40,896 nt of DNA, taken from a virus (taxonomy: Duplodnaviria > Heunggongvirae > Uroviricota > Caudoviricetes). Location: IMG/VR virus record IMGVR_UViG_3300015188_000003, positions 1 to 40,896 of that record; one strand, 5' to 3'. The notes under the pieces are model-generated. The model worked only from the letters and a program-made list of their open reading frames with translations. It was not told the DNA's origin and did no database searches. The translations under genes were made by a program, and so were the position numbers. Shown here one piece after another: positions 1-40,896 of this stretch. How positions within the stretch are numbered: position 1 is the stretch's first letter; each line of letters opens with the position of its first letter.

Positions 1-141
1 CTGTTGTTAGCGGCCCCCGACGCCTCCATCGGGGTGGGTTCGAATGTGATAGTTTCGCCGGTTTCCAGTGTCGCCGTAAGTTCCTGTAGCCCACGAACAA
101 GATAGTACGTCTTTGACAACAACGGGTGGCTGATTTGCAAC
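1..141. repeat. 141-bp terminal direct repeat, identical to 40756..40896 (circular-closure overlap)
   Basis: First and last 141 nt of the window are the same sequence. Confidence 0.95.
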
Positions 142-4702: not shown

Positions 4703-4809
4703 TCTTTAATCCTTTGGTTAAGAGGTTACAGGTTAAGGTTAATGCGCCAGACGGGAACCACCCGCTTTTCGTGTGCGACACTAGGCGCAAACTTATTCTA
4801 ACACACTAC

Positions 4810-4838
4810 TTGCGCGCCCCAATATAATAGGGTACTAT
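4810..4838 (+). promoter_or_regulatory. sigma70-like promoter TTGCGC-N17-TACTAT with embedded operator-like 18-mer (4824..4841)
   Basis: Near-identical to the block at 13046..13074; sits upstream of + gene 4867. Confidence 0.45.
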
Positions 4839-4866
4839 TCACCAGTAACTTACTGAGGGTATAATT

Positions 4867-6615: not shown

Positions 6616-6647
6616 TAAAAAAGGCCCCTTTCGGGGCCTTAGTTTTA
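6616..6647. terminator. bidirectional rho-independent terminator (AAGGCCCC-TTTC-GGGGCCTT flanked by A-run and T-run)
   Basis: Perfect 8-bp GC stem with U-tracts on both strands between convergent genes. Confidence 0.75.
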
Positions 6648-10510: not shown

Positions 10511-10537
10511 AAAAGGGGCCGTAGCCCCTTTGTTTTT
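10511..10537. terminator. rho-independent terminator after major capsid gene (AGGGGC-CGTA-GCCCCT + T-run)
   Basis: GC hairpin with flanking A/T runs directly after capsid stop. Confidence 0.7.
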
Positions 10538-12230: not shown

Positions 12231-12494
12231 CTATTCCAGAATATTCCTCACATAATCCTGCAACATGAACACTTTCAGCCTTAGCTGCCGTACGCATTCA
12301 GCGTTCTGAACGTCGATAGCTAAATCCTCGTCAGCGTCGCTACTTGGCGCTGCCAGTTTGCACGGAGGCTGCATCATCGTCGTATCCGGTAATGGAATTA
12401 GCGTTTGCGACGGCGTGGGACTTGAGCAGGACGCGAGCATCGTCGAAAGTGCACACGCTGCGACCCGGCGTTTTAATGTATTTAACAACTTCAC
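12231..12494 (-). CDS. o-spanin (Rz1-like outer-membrane lipoprotein)
   Basis: GTG start with AGAGGTGA SD; lipoprotein signal ending lipobox LASC; Pro-rich; starts inside the i-spanin gene in another frame and extends past its stop. Confidence 0.6.
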   Translation of the reverse strand: MKLLNTLKRRVAACALSTMLASCSSPTPSQTLIPLPDTTMMQPPCKLAAPSSDADEDLAIDVQNAECVRQLRLKVFMLQDYVRNILE

Positions 12495-12726
12495 GGGTAA
12501 TCACCTCTGATTTCGTCTTGCCTTCGTTGTCAGCGGCGGCGGCCTTTGATTCGTCCTGCTGCTGCCGTTGTGTTTTCTTCGCTAACTCAGCCTGCGCTTT
12601 CTGCTGTTGCTGCGAAACGAGATTCGCCCGGCCTTCGCTCCAGCCGCTGCGATACTGGTAAATGCCGTGGGCGTAAGCCAGGATGATGAAACATGCTCCT
12701 GCTACGACAGTTGCTTTAAGATTCAT
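12340..12726 (-). CDS. i-spanin (Rz-like)
   Basis: N-terminal TMD ATVVAGACFIILAYAHGIY followed by Gln/Lys/Glu-rich coiled-coil. Confidence 0.6.
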   Translation of the reverse strand: MNLKATVVAGACFIILAYAHGIYQYRSGWSEGRANLVSQQQQKAQAELAKKTQRQQQDESKAAAADNEGKTKSEVITREVVKYIKTPGRSVCTFDDARVLLKSHAVANANSITGYDDDAASVQTGSAK

Positions 12727-12740
12727 GTTTCCCCTTTCTC

Positions 12741-12770
12741 GATAAGTAAAGCCCCGCCATAAAGCGGGGC
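12741..12770 (-). terminator. GC hairpin (GCCCCGC-CATAAA-GCGGGGC) plus U-tract; possible 3' end of leftward transcript from repeat element A
   Basis: 7-bp GC stem followed on - strand by TTTACTTAT. Confidence 0.4.
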
Positions 12771-12849
12771 GCTAGTCCTTATCATTTAAACATAGAAACG
12801 GCGTAATCTCAGTAAACCAGTTACTTTTTACACAAGCAATAGAGTATGG

Positions 12850-12979
12850 CCCTTCCGAACGCGTCAGCGTAACTACACTCAGGACTTACGTCCCGCTCCG
12901 TTACCTGCCCGCGCCGCGGTCGCTTGTTCATACTTCACAAGCTCAGGTGGAGCTTATCATATTTTTAGTGAAAAGTCAA
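12850..12979 (-). repeat. conserved ~130-bp intergenic element, copy A (candidate sRNA/leader; paralogue of 23858..23988)
   Basis: Long blocks identical to copy B with indels in the central part; contains candidate - strand promoter and an AAGCTC...GAGCTT hairpin. Confidence 0.6.
12951..12979 (-). promoter_or_regulatory. candidate leftward promoter TTGACT-N17-TAAGCT inside element A
   Basis: Conserved with identical spacing in copy B. Confidence 0.35.
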
Positions 12980-13045
12980 CTATTCGAATAGTTTATTCCA
13001 ACATTTACAATTCGGTGGAATAACTGGAATACGTAAATAAATAGT

Positions 13046-13074
13046 TTGCACACCCCAATATAATAGGGTACTAT
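13046..13074 (+). promoter_or_regulatory. sigma70-like promoter TTGCAC-N17-TACTAT with operator-like 18-mer (13060..13077)
   Basis: Same architecture as 4810..4838; precedes strong SD and + gene 13102. Confidence 0.45.
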
Positions 13075-13101
13075 TCAGTTAACTTAAACAGGAGGTGAAA
13101 A

Positions 13102-13305
13102 ATGTATGCAATTTGCGAAGTAGTTCAAGAGTTCGATGAAGAGTTCGACGGTGACTTGTGCCGGGTTAAAAAGGTTCTGCAGGTTTTCCCTGACGCAATG
13201 TCTGCTTACAAGGCATTAGATATATTTGAACCTGGAAGATACGGGGATTATGACACTGTTCTGAGGGTTGTCCATGAGCAGGATTTAAACACAAGATTCC
13301 GTTGA
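13102..13305 (+). CDS. small acidic protein (67 aa), accessory gene on opposite strand
   Basis: AGGAGGTG SD; own promoter and terminator; embedded between leftward head genes and spanins. Confidence 0.7.
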   Translation: MYAICEVVQEFDEEFDGDLCRVKKVLQVFPDAMSAYKALDIFEPGRYGDYDTVLRVVHEQDLNTRFR

Positions 13306-13335
13306 AAACTAAGGCCCCTTAATGGGGCCTTTTAT
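13306..13335. terminator. bidirectional terminator (AAGGCCCC-TTAAT-GGGGCCTT + T-run)
   Basis: GC hairpin between convergent genes. Confidence 0.7.
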
Positions 13336-14877: not shown

Positions 14878-14900
14878 AAGAAAGCCCCTTTCGGGGCTAT
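14878..14900 (-). terminator. hairpin AGCCCC-TTTC-GGGGCT with U-rich tail (partial terminator)
   Basis: Between portal and head morphogenesis genes. Confidence 0.4.
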
Positions 14901-21583: not shown

Positions 21584-22024
21584 TTATCCTAATAGTTGTT
21601 TGGTAATAATCTTGCCGCCGGTGTCAGGGTCGAACTTCGATGCAACTGCTACACCACCTTGCGCCGAATACCCACATTCCATAGCCGCTAGGGCATAAGG
21701 GGCGCCTGAACCAACGGCGGAAAAGCTGTCCGCAATCTGAATAACCAAACTAAGAGCACAATCCCAAGATTTATAGAACTCCACCCTACACAACGTTTCG
21801 ATGTCTTTAACCCACACCAAGGCAGAGAAATCAAAATCGTAGTGCTTAGGCACTAAAATACTATCGTCCTCCACTAAAAGGATACCAACCCCTGCATCGC
21901 CAGCCGCCCCAATAACAACAAATTCGTTCTCGTATATCTTTGTGTCTGTGTTGTAACAGTTACTCCCGCACACAACACGGGTATCACAGGCCATTGTCTT
22001 TCCGTCAAACGCGATAGTAGTCAT
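21584..22024 (-). CDS. HslV/proteasome beta-like Ntn-hydrolase homologue (146 aa, truncated relative to HslV)
   Basis: Starts MTTIAF (Thr right after Met as in HslV MTTIVSV); VIGAAGDAG and VGSGAPYALAA resemble HslV AGFAGG and IGSGGPYAQAA. Confidence 0.6.
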   Translation of the reverse strand: MTTIAFDGKTMACDTRVVCGSNCYNTDTKIYENEFVVIGAAGDAGVGILLVEDDSILVPKHYDFDFSALVWVKDIETLCRVEFYKSWDCALSLVIQIADSFSAVGSGAPYALAAMECGYSAQGGVAVASKFDPDTGGKIITKQLLG

Positions 22025-22314
22025 TTATGTCTCCAGATGTATTGTCGTCTCTGTGGTTTCGTCGGAATATCATCGTACCCCAGCGATTTCCAGTAATTAA
22101 ATAGCCGGTTCGCGATAGCTGCGCGTTCCTTTGTTTTAAACTCACCGAGATTCACGGCCTTTCCGTTCTGGAATCCACAGGCGCGGATAGCTTTACGCCG
22201 TTCTTGTATCTCTGGGTACAGCACGTTACGGCGACGCTTGTGTATACGTGTCTTCGCTCTCGGTGACAGCGGCGCAAGGCCGCTTCGTTTCAGGATGTCA
22301 GTTGCTAACGACAT
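22021..22314 (-). CDS. small basic protein (97 aa) coupled to HslV-like gene
   Basis: Track ORF 22021..22359; likely ATG (MSLATDILKR) at 22314; ATGA overlap with downstream gene. Confidence 0.55.
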   Translation of the reverse strand: MSLATDILKRSGLAPLSPRAKTRIHKRRRNVLYPEIQERRKAIRACGFQNGKAVNLGEFKTKERAAIANRLFNYWKSLGYDDIPTKPQRRQYIWRHK

Positions 22315-22583
22315 CACTCCACCCCCTCCACATGTGTAACCGACCCGCAGTTCGCGCACTCGACGTAATCAGGGTACTGGTCTTTGTATTTCTGTAGCTC
22401 GGCGTTTACTTCTGCCAGTCTCGACACAAGCCCTTCTATTTCCTTGTCGGCGTCGGCTAGACGTTCCTGGTAATAGTCGTCCAGTTCCTTATAGCTGTCG
22501 TACTCTACATAATCGCCGTATGCGTACTCAGCCATCTCAGGCTCTGGCAGGCCCCACGCTTTTACCTCATATCTCTGTACCAT
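22314..22583 (-). CDS. hypothetical acidic early protein (89 aa)
   Basis: First gene after promoter 22613..22641. Confidence 0.6.
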   Translation of the reverse strand: MVQRYEVKAWGLPEPEMAEYAYGDYVEYDSYKELDDYYQERLADADKEIEGLVSRLAEVNAELQKYKDQYPDYVECANCGSVTHVEGVE

Positions 22584-22641: not shown

Positions 22642-22758
22642 GTAAATTTTATTGGTGTTTGTATTGTTGCATCTCCTGCAATAGCCGCTTCGATTGTTGC
22701 GTTTGGTGAAATAGAACAAAAATGAGAAAAATGATACGCTGCTGTGTAGCAGCGTAGG

Positions 22759-23397: not shown

Positions 23398-23616
23398 TTA
23401 TTTAAAGTAGATAGCGAATTTCTTGTAACCCGCAGGCTCATTACGAAGCCCCTTACCGATAGCGAAACGTTGTACGTTGTTAAAATCGTTTCCATCCATA
23501 CCGTCGGTGCCGAACGTAAAGAAGTTGCGTTTGTTCCCGATAATTACGCGCTCTGAAATATCGATGCCGTAAACTTGTTTGATTGCGGAAACTACGCTTG
23601 CGGTCGCTTTGTTCAT
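23398..23616 (-). CDS. hypothetical early protein (72 aa)
   Basis: First gene downstream of promoter 23651..23679. Confidence 0.6.
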   Translation of the reverse strand: MNKATASVVSAIKQVYGIDISERVIIGNKRNFFTFGTDGMDGNDFNNVQRFAIGKGLRNEPAGYKKFAIYFK

Positions 23617-23650: not shown

Positions 23651-23679
23651 ATAGTAACCTATTATGTTGGGGTGTGCAA
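23651..23679 (-). promoter_or_regulatory. sigma70-like promoter TTGCAC-N17-TACTAT with operator 18-mer (23648..23665), leftward
   Basis: Reverse complement near-identical to 13046..13077. Confidence 0.45.
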
Positions 23680-23714
23680 GAGAATAGTTACGTTGCCGTT
23701 GTGATTCTTTCGTT

Positions 23715-23777
23715 TCTTAAAAGAGTACGCAACGCAGTGGGTGGGCGTTAGCCCACCCCAGCGGAGTGAAGTACTCT
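23715..23777 (-). terminator. two-tier hairpin (outer AGAGTAC/GTACTCT, inner GGGTGGGC-GTTA-GCCCACCC) with U-rich tail; possible 3' end of transcript from element B
   Basis: Inverted repeats read directly; weak U-tract after outer stem on - strand. Confidence 0.35.
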
Positions 23778-23857
23778 CTACCTTGCTCACGGCAACTATA
23801 GAAACTTTTAATTATCAGTGACTTGGATATTTAGGCGGGATTAACAATAGACTTTGA

Positions 23858-23988
23858 CCCTTCCGAAAGCGTCAGCGGAACTACACTCAAGTGCCTAATG
23901 GCACGCGTTGCGTTCCCTGCCGCTCCGCGGTCGCTTGCGATATCTCACAAGCTCAGTGAAGCTTAGCATATTTTCAAGTAAAAGTCAA
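23858..23988 (-). repeat. conserved ~130-bp intergenic element, copy B (candidate sRNA/leader)
   Basis: Aligned with 12850..12979; shared blocks include CCCTTCCGAA.GCGTCAGCG.AACTACACTCA, CCGCGGTCGCTTG and TCACAAGCTCAG...AAAAGTCAA. Confidence 0.6.
23960..23988 (-). promoter_or_regulatory. candidate leftward promoter TTGACT-N17-TAAGCT inside element B
   Basis: Same boxes and spacing as in copy A. Confidence 0.35.
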
Positions 23989-24095: not shown

Positions 24096-24278
24096 ATGCA
24101 GCATTACATGACACAGAATGAAGTAGCTGAACGTATAGGGGTGACACGTCAGACAATTAATAACTGGTTGCGCAGTGGTAAATTCCCGGATTGTTGTATT
24201 AAGGTTATGGGTCGCCGTTTACCAGGAACATTTGACCGTAATAAAGTTGAAGCATGGATTAAGGAGAACGTGAAATGA
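24096..24278 (+). CDS. small HTH DNA-binding protein (AlpA/excisionase-type fold, regulator)
   Basis: MTQNEVAERIGVTRQTINNWL helix-turn-helix; ATG with AGGAG SD (track start 24024 is GTG). Confidence 0.7.
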   Translation: MQHYMTQNEVAERIGVTRQTINNWLRSGKFPDCCIKVMGRRLPGTFDRNKVEAWIKENVK

Positions 24279-27186: not shown

Positions 27187-27215
27187 TTGATATGTGAATA
27201 GTACCATATTAATTA
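27187..27215. promoter_or_regulatory. operator 18-mer TGAATAGTACCATATTAA (27195..27212) in divergent region with weak promoter elements
   Basis: Motif family member 25 nt upstream of the regulator start codon. Confidence 0.4.
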
Positions 27216-27230
27216 TTTTAGAAAAGCCCA

Positions 27231-27259
27231 TTGACACGTGAATAGTTCGCTATTATAGT
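27231..27259 (+). promoter_or_regulatory. strong sigma70-like promoter TTGACA-N17-TATAGT with operator 18-mer in the spacer (27239..27256)
   Basis: Consensus -35, 17-bp spacer; operator occupies the spacer. Confidence 0.55.
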
Positions 27260-27290
27260 TAACCCATACCAAACGAGAGGAGAGAAACAA

Positions 27291-29345: not shown

Positions 29346-29545
29346 TTCAAGTAAATGAAATGCCGACTGATAAAGATTTTTTGATGGTATGGCGCTGGGA
29401 TGGGTATCTACACTCGGAATCGTTCACGTTCTTGAACGGTACCATGATGCGATACGACCCTGTAGAGGATGAGTTCGAACCGGCCAATATGCTTAATTTC
29501 GAGAACATAATCCCTATTGCAAAATTTTATTTGACACATGAATAG
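29342..29545 (+). CDS. hypothetical protein (67 aa)
   Basis: ATGA overlap with nuclease stop; last codons overlap promoter 29531..29559. Confidence 0.6.
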   Translation: MIQVNEMPTDKDFLMVWRWDGYLHSESFTFLNGTMMRYDPVEDEFEPANMLNFENIIPIAKFYLTHE

Positions 29546-29559
29546 TTAGCTATTATAGT
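29531..29559 (+). promoter_or_regulatory. sigma70-like promoter TTGACA-N17-TATAGT with operator 18-mer (29539..29556), overlapping the 3' end of the upstream CDS
   Basis: Same architecture as 27231..27259. Confidence 0.5.
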
Positions 29560-29617
29560 TCTAATCACTGGCCGGGCAGATCCCGGAGTAAACTGAAACT
29601 GAAAAGCGAGAAATCAA

Positions 29618-30244: not shown

Positions 30245-30261
30245 TATCTGAATCAATTTAA

Positions 30262-30288
30262 CTAAGGCCCTTCATTGGGCCTTTTTAC
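30262..30288 (+). terminator. rho-independent terminator (AAGGCCC-TTCATT-GGGCCTT + T-run)
   Basis: GC hairpin then TTTTT after stop at 30244. Confidence 0.65.
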
Positions 30289-32721: not shown

Positions 32722-32995
32722 GGGGCGCGTGCAGAAATACGCAAAAGAGCGATTCGAGGCCCTGGGAGGCCTCGTACGCAAATTGTCGTACGAGGGGCGT
32801 TCCGGCGCCCCCGACCTGCTGGTAATTCTCCCTGGTGGCATCATCTGGTTCGTCGAGGTTAAGAAAGACGAAAACACGAAGCCGGACCCGCACCAGTTAC
32901 GAGAGCACGAGCGGATGCGTAAACGTGGTGCAAATGTTTTTGTCGTTGGTTCGTTTAAACAGGTTGACGACCTAATAGCGGGCTATTATAGTTAA
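32708..32995 (+). CDS. VRR-NUC domain nuclease
   Basis: GAPDLLVILPGGIIWFVEVKK...PHQ resembles VRR-NUC core. Confidence 0.7.
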   Translation: MSTPEGRVQKYAKERFEALGGLVRKLSYEGRSGAPDLLVILPGGIIWFVEVKKDENTKPDPHQLREHERMRKRGANVFVVGSFKQVDDLIAGYYS

Positions 32996-35560: not shown

Positions 35561-35590
35561 GAAAAGGCCCCAAACGGGGCCTTAGTTTTA
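35561..35590. terminator. bidirectional terminator between replication block and tailspike (AAGGCCCC-AAAC-GGGGCCTT)
   Basis: Perfect 8-bp GC stem with A/T runs on both sides between convergent genes. Confidence 0.75.
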
Positions 35591-40461: not shown

Positions 40462-40896
40462 GTAGTCAACAGGCCGCGTAATAACGGTATCTCTTTAGGT
40501 GTCATCAGTATACCAGTGCTTCGTTGGTTCAGCATAGGTGTACCGACATCCGCAGAGAACTCGCCCTTCTCCTGGTTGATGGCCTGTAACTCGTACACGA
40601 CAGGGCCGTCCGCCGGATAAGACAGGTCGGTGCTGACGTAACGGCGAAATACGAACTTCGGCAACTCCGTATTGCCCATTGGGATTTTATCCATCTCATC
40701 ATCAAGTTGATTGAGGATATCCGGTAAAGTAAACGTGGTCGTCTGGTCCATATCACTGTTGTTAGCGGCCCCCGACGCCTCCATCGGGGTGGGTTCGAAT
40801 GTGATAGTTTCGCCGGTTTCCAGTGTCGCCGTAAGTTCCTGTAGCCCACGAACAAGATAGTACGTCTTTGACAACAACGGGTGGCTGATTTGCAAC
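40458..40896 (-). CDS. minor tail protein (L-like position), C-terminal part of the junction-spanning gene
   Basis: Track ORF 40458..40895 appears to start at the window edge (TTG); frame continues into 1..218; ATGA overlap with next gene at 40461. Confidence 0.6.
   Translation of the reverse strand, partial: LQISHPLLSKTYYLVRGLQELTATLETGETITFEPTPMEASGAANNSDMDQTTTFTLPDILNQLDDEMDKIPMGNTELPKFVFRRYVSTDLSYPADGPVVYELQAINQEKGEFSADVGTPMLNQRSTGILMTPKEIPLLRGLLTT
40756..40896. repeat. 141-bp terminal direct repeat, second copy
   Basis: Identical to 1..141. Confidence 0.95.

What the first reader, a model, noticed from the sequence alone, without database searches (positions are those of the whole stretch)
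12741..12992. Two paralogous ~130-bp intergenic elements with a conserved leftward promoter and downstream hairpin (candidate small RNAs)
12850..12979 and 23858..23988 share long identical blocks separated by indel-rich variable segments. Both contain the same TTGACT-N17-TAAGCT box pair on the - strand and an AAGCTC...GAGCTT hairpin at the predicted start. Each is followed 80-100 nt downstream by a GC-rich hairpin with U-rich tail (12741..12770 and 23715..23777). The indels break any common reading frame, so conservation is at the nucleotide/structure level, arguing for a non-coding RNA or regulatory leader of roughly 200-240 nt.
Basis: seen in the sequence. Interest (0 to 1): 0.7.

Follow-up and report, generated by a model that had tools for sequence, protein, structure and literature searches.

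The report
Structured leader RNA before phage late operons
Two copies of a previously undescribed, strongly conserved folded RNA sit immediately after a promoter and before a terminator, upstream of the two leftward late operons of a Kagunavirus-type phage; they most likely control whether RNA polymerase reads through into the capsid, lysis and packaging genes.

Summary
The window is a complete Kagunavirus-like genome. It carries two paralogous minus-strand modules: copy A at 12836-12944 and copy B at 23844-23954. Each module starts about 7 nt after an extended -10 promoter (TTGACT-N17 ending in TGn-TAAGCT). Each folds into a 5'-terminal hairpin P1 and a long three-part hairpin P2, and each is followed 70-95 nt later by an intrinsic terminator.

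- **Structure:** it is supported by covariation. 96.6% of cells are paired, 7 of 29 pairs show compensatory changes, 0 of 500 shuffles reach this, and slid controls give about 35%.
- **Strand and coding:** G-U pairs place the structure on the minus strand. The short ORF that GenBank annotates over the element is not conserved.
- **Distribution:** copy A occurs at 95-100% identity in 181 phage records and is better conserved than the adjacent genes. About 43 records carry a second copy, in several variants. Cornellvirus, phiEap-2, Pantoea and Hafnia phages have diverged versions at the same position.
- **Databases:** there is no Rfam match and no similarity to HK022 put.

Best explanation (about 0.4): a cis-acting leader RNA that licenses terminator read-through into the late operons, analogous to put or nut but not a family member. 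The rivals are a terminated small RNA of about 200-245 nt and an mRNA processing or stability element. The function is inferred, not shown.

The parts
12974..12979 (-). -35 box TTGACT of promoter P_A
   Evidence: Read directly. Invariant in all homologues.
12951..12959 (-). Extended -10 box TGaTAAGCT of P_A, 17-nt spacer
   Evidence: TG and TAAGCT are invariant; the base between them varies (A, C or G).
12836..12944 (-). Leader RNA module, copy A (P1, P2 and the tail GGAAGGGCC...CUAUUG). Predicted start near 12944.
   Evidence: Model R1 scores 137.3 bits. Folds. Covariation.
12922..12942 (-). P1, the 5'-terminal hairpin of copy A (GCUUGU / ACAAGC, 9-nt loop)
   Evidence: 100% paired in the alignment. 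Replaced by unrelated hairpins in types C, D and AH01.
12855..12919 (-). P2 of copy A, a long hairpin. Basal helix CCG+GGCGCG / CGCGUU+CGG; middle helix CAG+GUAAC / GUUAC+CUG; 4x6 internal loop (GGAG / AGUGUA); apex CGGGAC-GUAA-GUCCUG.
   Evidence: Compensatory changes at 7 pairs.
12771..12835 (-). Rest of the copy A leader, between the module and the terminator
   Evidence: As conserved as the module itself (0.96-0.98 column identity). Partly homologous to the copy B leader (ACUGA.A.UUA, GUUUCUAU).
12742..12770 (-). Intrinsic terminator of leader A (GCCCCGC-UUUAU-GGCGGGGC followed by UUUACUUAU)
   Evidence: 8 pairs, 7 of them G-C. It ends about 15 nt before the ribosome-binding site and ATG at 12726.
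12340..12726 (-). First gene after leader A (Rz-like i-spanin). Scaffold, major capsid, connector and tail-tube genes follow, down to 6645.
   Evidence: annotation of relatives.
23983..23988 (-). -35 box TTGACT of promoter P_B
23960..23968 (-). Extended -10 box TGcTAAGCT of P_B, 17-nt spacer
23844..23954 (-). Leader RNA module, copy B. P1 at 23933-23952 (8 bp, GAUA loop). P2 at 23863-23930 (apex GUGCC-AUUA-GGCAC).
   Evidence: Model R1 scores 82.2 bits. Fold z-score -2.9.
23706..23767 (-). Terminator of leader B: nested hairpin (AGAGUAC...GGGGUGGGC-UAAC-GCCCACCC...GUACUCU) followed by UUUUAAG
23651..23679 (-). Second promoter, TTGCAC-N17-TACTAT, lying between terminator B and the first gene (ATG at 23616)
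   Evidence: Repeat families D2 and D6. Conserved in about 180 records, including those without a second module copy.
12980..12995 (.). Perfect palindrome AACTATTCGAATAGTT abutting the -35 box of P_A. Operator-like; same half-sites as AATAG-N4-CTATT in the other promoter families.
   Evidence: Absent at P_B.
10512..10531 (-). Internal terminator-like hairpin just after the major capsid gene, inside the operon headed by copy A
   Evidence: GGGGC-UAC-GGCCCC followed by UUUUUAC. Annotated as a terminator in phage Snoke.
14883..14898 (-). Internal terminator-like hairpin between the portal and head-morphogenesis genes, inside the operon headed by copy B
22735..22756 (-). Internal terminator-like hairpin in the small-gene part of the operon headed by copy B
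   Evidence: 9 pairs, tail UCAUUUUUCU.

Best explanation
The two elements are copies of a cis-acting 5' leader RNA module. Host sigma-70 RNA polymerase starts at an extended -10 promoter and immediately transcribes a two-domain folded RNA: the terminal hairpin P1 and the long, bulged hairpin P2 with conserved internal-loop bases. An intrinsic terminator follows 70-95 nt further on.

I infer that the folded nascent RNA makes the polymerase that produced it resistant to that terminator and to the further terminator-like hairpins inside the operons. It could do this alone, like HK022 put, or together with an unidentified phage or host factor, like nut. Read-through would allow expression of the spanin, scaffold, capsid, connector and tail-tube genes behind copy A. 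Behind copy B it would allow expression of the small-gene, holin/endolysin, terminase and portal operon. Transcripts that are not rescued would end as RNAs of about 200 nt (A) and about 245 nt (B).

Shown here: the promoter anatomy, the RNA fold with covariation, the strand, the lack of coding potential, the conservation, and the fixed order promoter-module-terminator-operon. Inferred: that the module affects termination at all, and by what mechanism.
For: **Position.** In types A, B and D the module begins at the predicted transcript 5' end. It always lies between a promoter and a terminator at the head of a long operon.

**Read-through is required.** Leader A is the only promoter-bearing region before the capsid operon, and its terminator ends about 15 nt before the ribosome-binding site. 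Capsid expression therefore needs read-through.

**Terminators are retained despite turnover.** The hairpins after the different second-copy variants are unrelated in sequence, yet one is always present. Examples are window B, RP180/Snoke (GGUGCC-UUCG-GGCACC) and ST20 (GGGCAGGCC-UUAAA-GGCCUGCCC followed by UUUAGUU).

**More terminators downstream.** Further minus-strand terminator-like hairpins lie inside both operons (Snoke annotation).

**RNA-level selection.** 96.6% of cells are paired, 7 of 29 pairs have changes on both sides, 0 of 500 shuffles reach this, and slid controls give 34-38%. G-U pairs favour the minus strand.

**Conservation.** Promoter, module, leader and terminator show 0.96-0.99 column identity. 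The spanin gene shows 0.82-0.94 and the upstream region 0.26-0.73.

**Paralogous copies.** Two copies heading two operons is the arrangement of putL/putR and nutL/nutR (PMC9378689).

**No protein antiterminator recognised.** No N-like or Q-like protein was found among 20 small ORFs scanned against PHROGs.
Against: - There is no experimental evidence of any kind. The one RNA-seq study of a Kagunavirus reports only gene-level timing (PMC12645636).
- There is no sequence or model similarity to HK022 putL.
- If the RNA acted alone and constitutively, a terminator placed directly behind it would regulate nothing.
- In second-copy loci the cassette is followed by another promoter that exists in all relatives. 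In K1G the P1-P2 part is replaced by an unrelated 5' module. The cassette therefore looks like a self-contained, exchangeable small-RNA gene.
- About 138 of 181 genomes manage without the second copy.
- In types C and D the hairpin before the ribosome-binding site has a poor U tract (UGUUACG), so it may not be a terminator there.
- The tail operon and the plus-strand operons have no such module.
Confidence: 0.4

Rival explanations
1. The cassette is a stand-alone small RNA gene. Promoter, RNA and terminator form a complete unit producing an abundant RNA of about 200 nt (A) or about 245 nt (B). This RNA would act in trans on host or phage mRNAs or proteins. Read-through into the operons would be incidental leakage.
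For: The unit is complete and compact. At the second locus it sits upstream of an independent, universally conserved promoter, and its 5' module can be swapped for another one in K1G. There is precedent: short RNAs terminated downstream of a constitutively active phage late promoter can act as regulators, as with StxS from PR'-tR' (PMC7547250, abstract seen). This explanation is not exclusive of the best explanation.
Against: Copy A leaves the capsid operon with no other promoter, so leader A at least must be read through. The U tails are short and interrupted, which is not typical of Hfq-type small RNAs. No target or seed region was identified or tested. The whole leader A, not only a seed, is conserved at 96-99%.
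Confidence: 0.22
2. The module is an mRNA processing or stability element. P1 at the extreme 5' end would protect the late mRNA from 5'-end-dependent decay. P2, about 20 bp with an asymmetric internal loop, could be an RNase III site of the kind found in T7 or in the lambda N leader. Either would set the half-life or the translation of the late transcripts.
For: P1 starts 2-3 nt from the predicted 5' end in types A, B and D. P2 has lower and upper helices separated by a conserved 4x6 internal loop. From general knowledge of T7 R1.1-type sites, that geometry is what such sites look like. The module precedes the most highly expressed class of genes.
Against: A stabilising hairpin does not need about 110 nt with conserved loop sequences. 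In type C the structured part begins about 25 nt from the predicted start. This explanation does not account for the obligatory terminator downstream. RNase III recognition cannot be assessed with these tools.
Confidence: 0.15
3. The conservation reflects function at the DNA level, for example a binding site for a phage regulator of the late promoter, or function as a short protein-coding gene.
For: CTATT/AATAG half-sites recur at the promoters, next to the -35 box of P_A and in the module's tail. Several GenBank records annotate a hypothetical protein over the element.
Against: Compensatory changes keep the RNA helices intact while the sequence changes, and the apex hairpins are entirely different yet still pair. 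G-U pairs are tolerated on one strand only. The ATG is missing in window copy B and in L032, and the frame is broken or stopped after 9-22 codons in 9 further variants.
Confidence: 0.05

Closest known systems
HK022 putL/putR (polymerase-utilisation RNAs; RNA-only processive antitermination)
   Same: Two paralogous cis elements, each downstream of a sigma-70 promoter at the head of a long phage operon. putL, like this module, begins at the transcript 5' end. Both have a two-stem-loop architecture with bulges and internal loops, and both have terminators downstream (PMC9378689; putL located).
   Different: There is no detectable sequence or covariance-model similarity. This module is about 110 nt against about 74 nt for put, and its two stems are very unequal. 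The host phages are virulent siphophages of the Guernseyvirinae, not lambdoid phages. The module heads late, not early, operons. The second copy is optional. Binding to the RNA polymerase beta' zinc-binding domain is untested.
Lambda-type nutL/nutR with N protein
   Same: Paralogous RNA signals lie just after two promoters and act on downstream terminators. A factor-dependent version would explain why a terminator follows immediately.
   Different: There is no boxA consensus; the nearest candidate, CUCUAUUG, differs from GCUCUUUA at 3 of 8 positions (read). The element is far larger than a boxB hairpin. No arginine-rich N-like protein was recognised.
Lambda PR'-6S RNA-tR' late control by Q, and the StxS small RNA derived from it
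   Same: The order is the same: a promoter that looks constitutive (strong consensus; its activity was not tested), a leader of about 200 nt, an intrinsic terminator, then lysis and structural genes. The terminated leader can itself be a stable RNA (PMC7547250).
   Different: Q acts through a DNA site and a sigma-dependent pause and does not need a conserved RNA fold. No Q homologue was found. No conserved -10-like pause element is shared by copies A and B.
T7-type RNase III processing hairpins
   Same: Repeated intergenic hairpins with lower and upper stems and an asymmetric internal loop (resemblance recalled from general knowledge, not tested).
   Different: There are only two copies, both directly at promoters, combined with a second hairpin and a terminator. 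No cleavage data exist.

Membership tests
HK022 put RNA | Sequence or profile similarity to putL/putR | tested here: not met
   blastn of the 74-nt putL against the window gives only chance 9-11-mers, none in the element. Model R1 on the HK022 PL/PR region gives a best score of 5.6 bits, E=2.9, not at put.
HK022 put RNA | Two adjacent stem-loops with bulges, transcribed just downstream of an operon promoter, with terminators further downstream | tested here: met
   P1 and P2 are separated by 2 nt and start at about +3. Terminators.
HK022 put RNA | Two paralogous copies heading the two main operons | tested here: inconclusive
   True for this window and for about 43 of 181 related records. The rest have one copy.
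HK022 put RNA | The nascent RNA binds the RNA polymerase beta' zinc-binding domain and suppresses pausing and termination without protein factors | not testable with these tools
   Needs in vitro transcription, rpoC zinc-binding-domain mutants, or cryo-EM.
Lambda nut site / N antitermination | boxA (CGCUCUUA / GCUCUUUAACAA) next to a short boxB hairpin | tested here: not met
   No boxA in either leader. The nearest candidate is CUCUAUUG in copy A and GUCUAUUG in copy B.
Lambda nut site / N antitermination | Phage-encoded arginine-rich N-like protein | tested here: inconclusive
   PHROGs scans of 20 small ORFs found no antiterminator family. An Arg-rich window scan gave only out-of-frame ORFs, terminase and one unknown 112-aa protein at 22021-22359.
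Lambda Q / qut late control | Q-family protein, with a DNA Q-binding element and a sigma-dependent pause site at the late promoter | tested here: inconclusive
   No Q family hit in the 20 small ORFs scanned, though not every ORF of the genome was scanned. No -10-like element is shared by A and B in the first 25 nt: AAGUAU is present in A only.
Any Rfam 15 family | Covariance-model match at the gathering threshold | tested here: not met
   0 matches in the whole window. Only chance-level matches at E=0.7-8 in the two regions.
Trans-acting small RNA | Own promoter and own intrinsic terminator | tested here: met
Trans-acting small RNA | Conserved single-stranded seed with identifiable targets; accumulation as a discrete RNA | not tested
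   No target search was done, and no transcript data resolve intergenic RNAs.
Protein-coding gene (as annotated in some GenBank records) | Conserved ORF with a conserved start and frame | tested here: not met
   The ATG is absent in 3 variants, and there is a frameshift or early stop in 9 more.

The most novel reading that the evidence does not exclude
The module is a third, independently evolved class of RNA-only processive antiterminator, after HK022 put and Bacillus EAR. It would fold at the 5' end of the nascent transcript, bind the enterobacterial RNA polymerase that made it, and carry that polymerase through every terminator of the late operons of virulent Guernseyvirinae phages. The competing basal pairings of P2 (the local hairpin CCGC-GGC-GCGG against the long-range helix GGCGCG/CGCGUU) would act as a co-transcriptional folding switch.
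Probability: 0.2. Interest if true: 0.8.

Novelty: new variant of a known kind. Interest (0 to 1): 0.6.

Why it matters
Jersey-like and Kagunavirus phages are among the phages most often isolated for therapy against Salmonella and E. coli, yet how they switch on their late genes is unknown. They encode no RNA polymerase, and no antiterminator was recognised among the small ORFs scanned here.

The module described here is conserved at 95-100%, is supported by covariation, and sits exactly where a late-gene switch would be expected. It is the obvious candidate for that switch, and a reporter fusion would test it directly.

If it acts on RNA polymerase as put does, it would be one of very few known RNA antiterminators, and a compact part for synthetic read-through control. 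At a minimum it is an unrecorded RNA family. Several GenBank records currently annotate it as a hypothetical protein, and that annotation should be corrected.

Tried and rejected
- **Rfam:** scans at the gathering threshold and at permissive E-values found nothing. There are no tRNA or tmRNA genes.
- **Coding hypothesis:** rejected.
- **Plus-strand RNA:** rejected on G-U content, fold z-score, and promoter and terminator orientation.
- **Homology to HK022 put:** rejected.
- **boxA/nut:** rejected by inspection.
- **Pseudoknot, GAGU loop with ACUC tail:** considered, and rejected because the tail varies freely (CAUACU, CAUAGU, CGUACU, AAUAGU) and copy B lacks it.
- **Pairing of the P1 loop with the tail (MFE of copy A):** rejected for the same reason.
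- **Terminator/antiterminator alternative pairing with the module:** no convincing complementarity in A, and none in B.
- **P3 (AGGN/NUCU):** predicted in single folds, but both sides are nearly invariant, so it is left open.
- **Loose pattern scan of viral contigs:** it returned almost only chance matches. Only 3 of 77 new loci held the element, all from Guernseyvirinae-type contigs.
- **E. coli genomes:** no copy in 5,426 complete genomes.
- **Literature:** searches found no description of the element.
- **Broader model R2:** it reaches the diverged type D leaders only weakly (E about 0.1, though at the homologous position in 4 loci). It does not reach type C, whose relationship rests on position, shared leader 3' half and visible motifs.

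Full report
**What the window is.** Bases 1-141 repeat at 40756-40896, so the window is a complete, circularly assembled phage genome of about 40.76 kb. A 2-kb segment around the finding matches 305 phage records. The best is Escherichia phage Bas73 at 97%. The hits are Kagunavirus and Jersey-like Salmonella phages of the subfamily Guernseyvirinae.

Gene order follows these relatives. A leftward (minus-strand) block of small genes, holin/endolysin, terminase, portal and head-morphogenesis genes runs from 23616 down to 13335. A one-gene plus-strand insert lies at 13102-13305. A second leftward block runs from 12726 to 6645 and holds the spanins, scaffold, major capsid, connectors and tail tube. 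A plus-strand insert and the leftward tail operon follow. The replication genes are on the plus strand.

**Checking the observation.** The two regions align over about 145 nt, from the -35 box to ...UCUAUUG. They share long identical blocks, with indels in between. They form repeat family D4. A profile HMM finds them with E=9e-36 and 4.5e-28. A covariance model scores them at 137.3 and 82.2 bits and finds no third copy in the window with filters off.

The box pair TTGACT-N17-TAAGCT is at 12979-12951 and 23988-23960 on the minus strand. Across 34 distinct homologous copies the -35 box, a TG two bases upstream of the -10 box, and TAAGCT are all invariant. The base after the TG is A, C or G, and the 4-6 nt after the -10 box vary freely (CCAC, TCA, CGTC, CAGC, CCTC). 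That pattern is what an extended -10 sigma-70 promoter with an unconstrained discriminator looks like. It places the start at about 12944 and 23954.

It is also absent from the diverged types. The hairpin at the RNA 5' end is GCUUGU/ACAAGC.

Both downstream hairpins are terminator-like. One is at 12770-12751 with the tail UUUACUUAU. The other is a nested hairpin at 23767-23712 with the tail UUUUAAG.

**The RNA fold.** Every variant was folded on its own: A, B, the ST20/L018 type, L038, the hybrid L053, the RP180/Snoke type B2, and the L/G AB-2017 type B2'. All give the same architecture:
- P1 sits at the 5' end.
- Two unpaired bases follow.
- P2 is a long hairpin. It has a basal helix (CCG + GGCGCG with CGCGUU + CGG), a middle helix (CAG + GUAAC with GUUAC + CUG), an asymmetric internal loop whose 3' side keeps GAGUG, and an apical hairpin.
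- The apical hairpin differs completely between types but always pairs: CGGGAC-GUAA-GUCCUG, GUGCC-AUUA-GGCAC, GUGC-UUUA-GCAC, CACG-UGUAG-CGUG, CACGUC-UCG-GACGUG.
- The tail is GGAAGGGCC...(C/G)UCUAUUG.

RNAalifold on a plain MAFFT alignment of nine variants predicts the same helices, 6 of them with compensatory pairs.

The model-based alignment of 23 distinct sequences, with the weak type D rows left out, gives these figures:
- 96.6% of 650 cells are paired.
- 7 of 29 pairs have changes on both sides. One basal pair appears as C-G, A-U and U-A. One middle pair appears as U-A, A-U and G-C.
- 0 of 500 column shuffles reach any of the five measures.
- Sliding the 3' partners by 1-3 columns drops pairing to 34-38%.

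Including type D gives 10 compensatory pairs. These alignments are fitted to the model, which inflates pairing somewhat. The single-sequence folds and the MAFFT-based result are independent of that.

Of the paired cells, 63 are G-U. Read on the other strand, pairing falls from 96.9% to 88.1%. Copy A also folds no better than its shuffles on the plus strand. P1 does not vary within types A and B, so its support comes from the diverged types described below.

One ambiguity remains. The 5' strand of the basal helix can also form a local hairpin, CCGC-GGC-GCGG. That hairpin has its own compensatory change in the ST20 type (CCGU-GUC-ACGG) and a counterpart in type D (CGCC-GCAA-GGCG). The two pairings exclude each other and both have some support.

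**Not coding.** The 36-codon ORF annotated over copy A in several GenBank records (Bas73_0007, CPT_Snoke_007) starts in the P1 loop. Its ATG is missing in window copy B, in L011 and in the type A variant L032. One- or two-base indels stop it after 9-22 codons in nine other variants.

**Distribution.** Copy A is found in 181 phage records at 95-100% identity. The hosts are Escherichia, Salmonella, Raoultella and Shigella. There are 224 places in total, so about 43 records carry a second copy. No copy is present in 5,426 complete E. coli genomes.

Across 28 distinct type A contexts, the mean column identity differs sharply by segment:

| Segment | Column identity |
|---|---|
| Promoter to terminator (13002-12724) | 0.96-0.99 |
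| Spanin gene | 0.82-0.94 |
| Upstream of the promoter | 0.26-0.73 |

The whole leader is therefore the best-conserved local segment.

The second copy always lies between the divergent helix-turn-helix gene and the leftward small-gene block. It is always followed by a strong hairpin with a U-rich tail, and these hairpins are unrelated in sequence between variants. Next comes a TTGCAC-N17-TACTAT promoter, which is present in about 180 relatives whether or not they have the module.

Phage K1G lacks the second module. It keeps the 3' half of that leader, from GUCUAUU to the terminator. Behind a TTGACA-N16-TAAAAT promoter it has an unrelated 5' part. The leaders are therefore mosaic, and P1-P2 is an exchangeable 5' module.

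**Diverged relatives.** Other Guernseyvirinae have related leaders at the position of copy A, upstream of the spanin gene.
- **Type D.** It occurs in Enterobacter phage phiEap-2, Salmonella phages pink, FSL SP-031 and SenTO17, and Hafnia phage TS33. It has the promoter TGGACT-N17(TGA)-TAACCT and a different P1 (UUCGU/ACGAA). Its P2 keeps GUAAC...GUUAC, a GUAA loop and GGAAGGGCC.
- **Type C.** It occurs in most Cornellvirus phages and in Pantoea phage AH01. It has a TGTATAAT promoter. Its P1 covaries completely (AAGAUGC/GCAUCUU against CCCC/GGGG). Its P2 is CAGGGAC-GGGCC-GUAA-GGCC...GUCCCUG. It also has an extra domain.

The models reach type D only weakly (E=0.1-0.6), but at the homologous position in four loci. 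Type C is linked by position, by the shared 3' half of the leader, and by visible motifs. A loose pattern scan of viral contigs found the element only in Guernseyvirinae-type contigs.

**What it most likely does.** The fixed order is promoter, structured RNA, terminator, long operon. For copy A there is no other promoter before the capsid genes, and the terminator ends about 15 nt before the ribosome-binding site. Polymerases must therefore pass it. More minus-strand terminator-like hairpins lie inside both operons, at 22756-22735, 14898-14883 and just after the capsid gene at 10531-10512. The last is annotated as a terminator in Snoke.

Phages are known to control late or delayed genes with this layout: lambda PR'-tR' with Q, nutL/nutR with N, and HK022 putL/putR, which need no protein. 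I therefore favour a cis-acting leader RNA that licenses read-through, at confidence about 0.4.

The resemblance to put is architectural. Both are paralogous, both sit next to a promoter, and both have two stems. putL also begins at +1 (PMC9378689). Membership of the put family is excluded by sequence and by model. boxA is absent, and no N-like or Q-like protein was recognised.

A purely constitutive RNA-only mechanism would make the adjacent terminator pointless. A factor-assisted or partial mechanism is at least as likely as a strict put analogue.

**Rivals.**
- **Terminated small RNA (about 0.22).** The cassette is self-contained. At the second locus it is followed by an independent promoter and is exchangeable. 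The terminated RNA of about 200-245 nt may therefore be the functional product, as StxS is for Shiga-toxin phages (PMC7547250). This does not exclude the leader role.
- **Processing or stability element (about 0.15).** This would be a 5'-terminal protective hairpin plus an RNase III-like P2. It does not explain the terminator.
- **DNA-level or coding explanations (about 0.05).** Both are disfavoured.

**Novelty.** There is no Rfam 15 match and no mention in the searchable literature. The only RNA-seq study of a Kagunavirus gives gene-level timing only; it places the neighbouring helix-turn-helix gene among the early genes. This is a new RNA family of a familiar general kind, phage leader and antitermination-type signals. 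Its function remains to be shown.

Noticed in passing
window 1-141 and 40756-40896: An exact 141-bp terminal overlap. The window is a complete, circularly assembled phage genome of about 40.76 kb.
   Followed up: partly
window 27187-27260, 29531-29560, 32964-32993 (+); 4810-4841 and 13046-13077 (+); 23651-23679 (-): Two promoter families, TTGACA...TATAGT and TTGCRC-N17-TACTAT, share an operator-like palindrome AATAG-N4-CTATT in the spacer and -10 region. This suggests one regulator controls the early plus-strand operons and the divergent promoters. The candidate regulators were not examined: the helix-turn-helix gene at 24096-24278, and the Cro-like gene seen in relatives.
   Followed up: partly
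window 12980-12995: A perfect 16-bp palindrome, AACTATTCGAATAGTT, abuts the -35 box of P_A. It has the same half-sites in inverted order. It is conserved in type A copies and absent at P_B. It may be an operator that sets the timing of the capsid-operon promoter.
   Followed up: partly
window 6621-6640, 13311-13331, 14883-14898, 30260-30287, 35564-35583: A family of near-identical hairpins, AAGGCCCC-N4/5-GGGGCCTT, several of them bidirectional terminators. They flank the opposite-strand gene inserts and mark operon ends.
   Followed up: no
L059 (phage K1G) 280-620: At the second-copy locus K1G has a different 5' leader module behind a TTGACA-N16-TAAAAT promoter. It includes an inverted copy of the leader A terminator hairpin (AAAGCCCCGCCATAAAGCGGGGCGCT), joined to the same 3' leader half and terminator as window copy B. 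The leaders evolve by module exchange.
   Followed up: partly
window 12884-12919 and homologues: The 5' strand of basal P2 can form a local hairpin (CCGC-GGC-GCGG; CCGU-GUC-ACGG in ST20; CGCC-GCAA-GGCG in type D). This competes with the long-range helix. Each pairing has its own compensatory changes, so this may be a folding switch.
   Followed up: partly
L001 20671-20781; L046 6449-6559 and 37709-37816; L054 309-584: GenBank records annotate hypothetical-protein ORFs, some with ribosome-binding sites, over the RNA module on either strand. These are probably mis-annotations.
   Followed up: yes
window 4703-4866 (-): The tail operon has its own candidate promoter (TTGGGG-N16/17-TGtTAGAAT), divergent from the plus-strand promoter at 4810-4841. 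Its leader is about 100 nt with a GCGCC...GGCGC hairpin, and it has no P1-P2 module.
   Followed up: no
L042 1925-2050: A more distant relative has a different short unit upstream of its holin-like gene. It consists of TTGCAT-N17-TAGAAT, about 85 nt containing two AUAGACAU repeats, and a U7 terminator. This may be an unrelated small RNA or leader.
   Followed up: no
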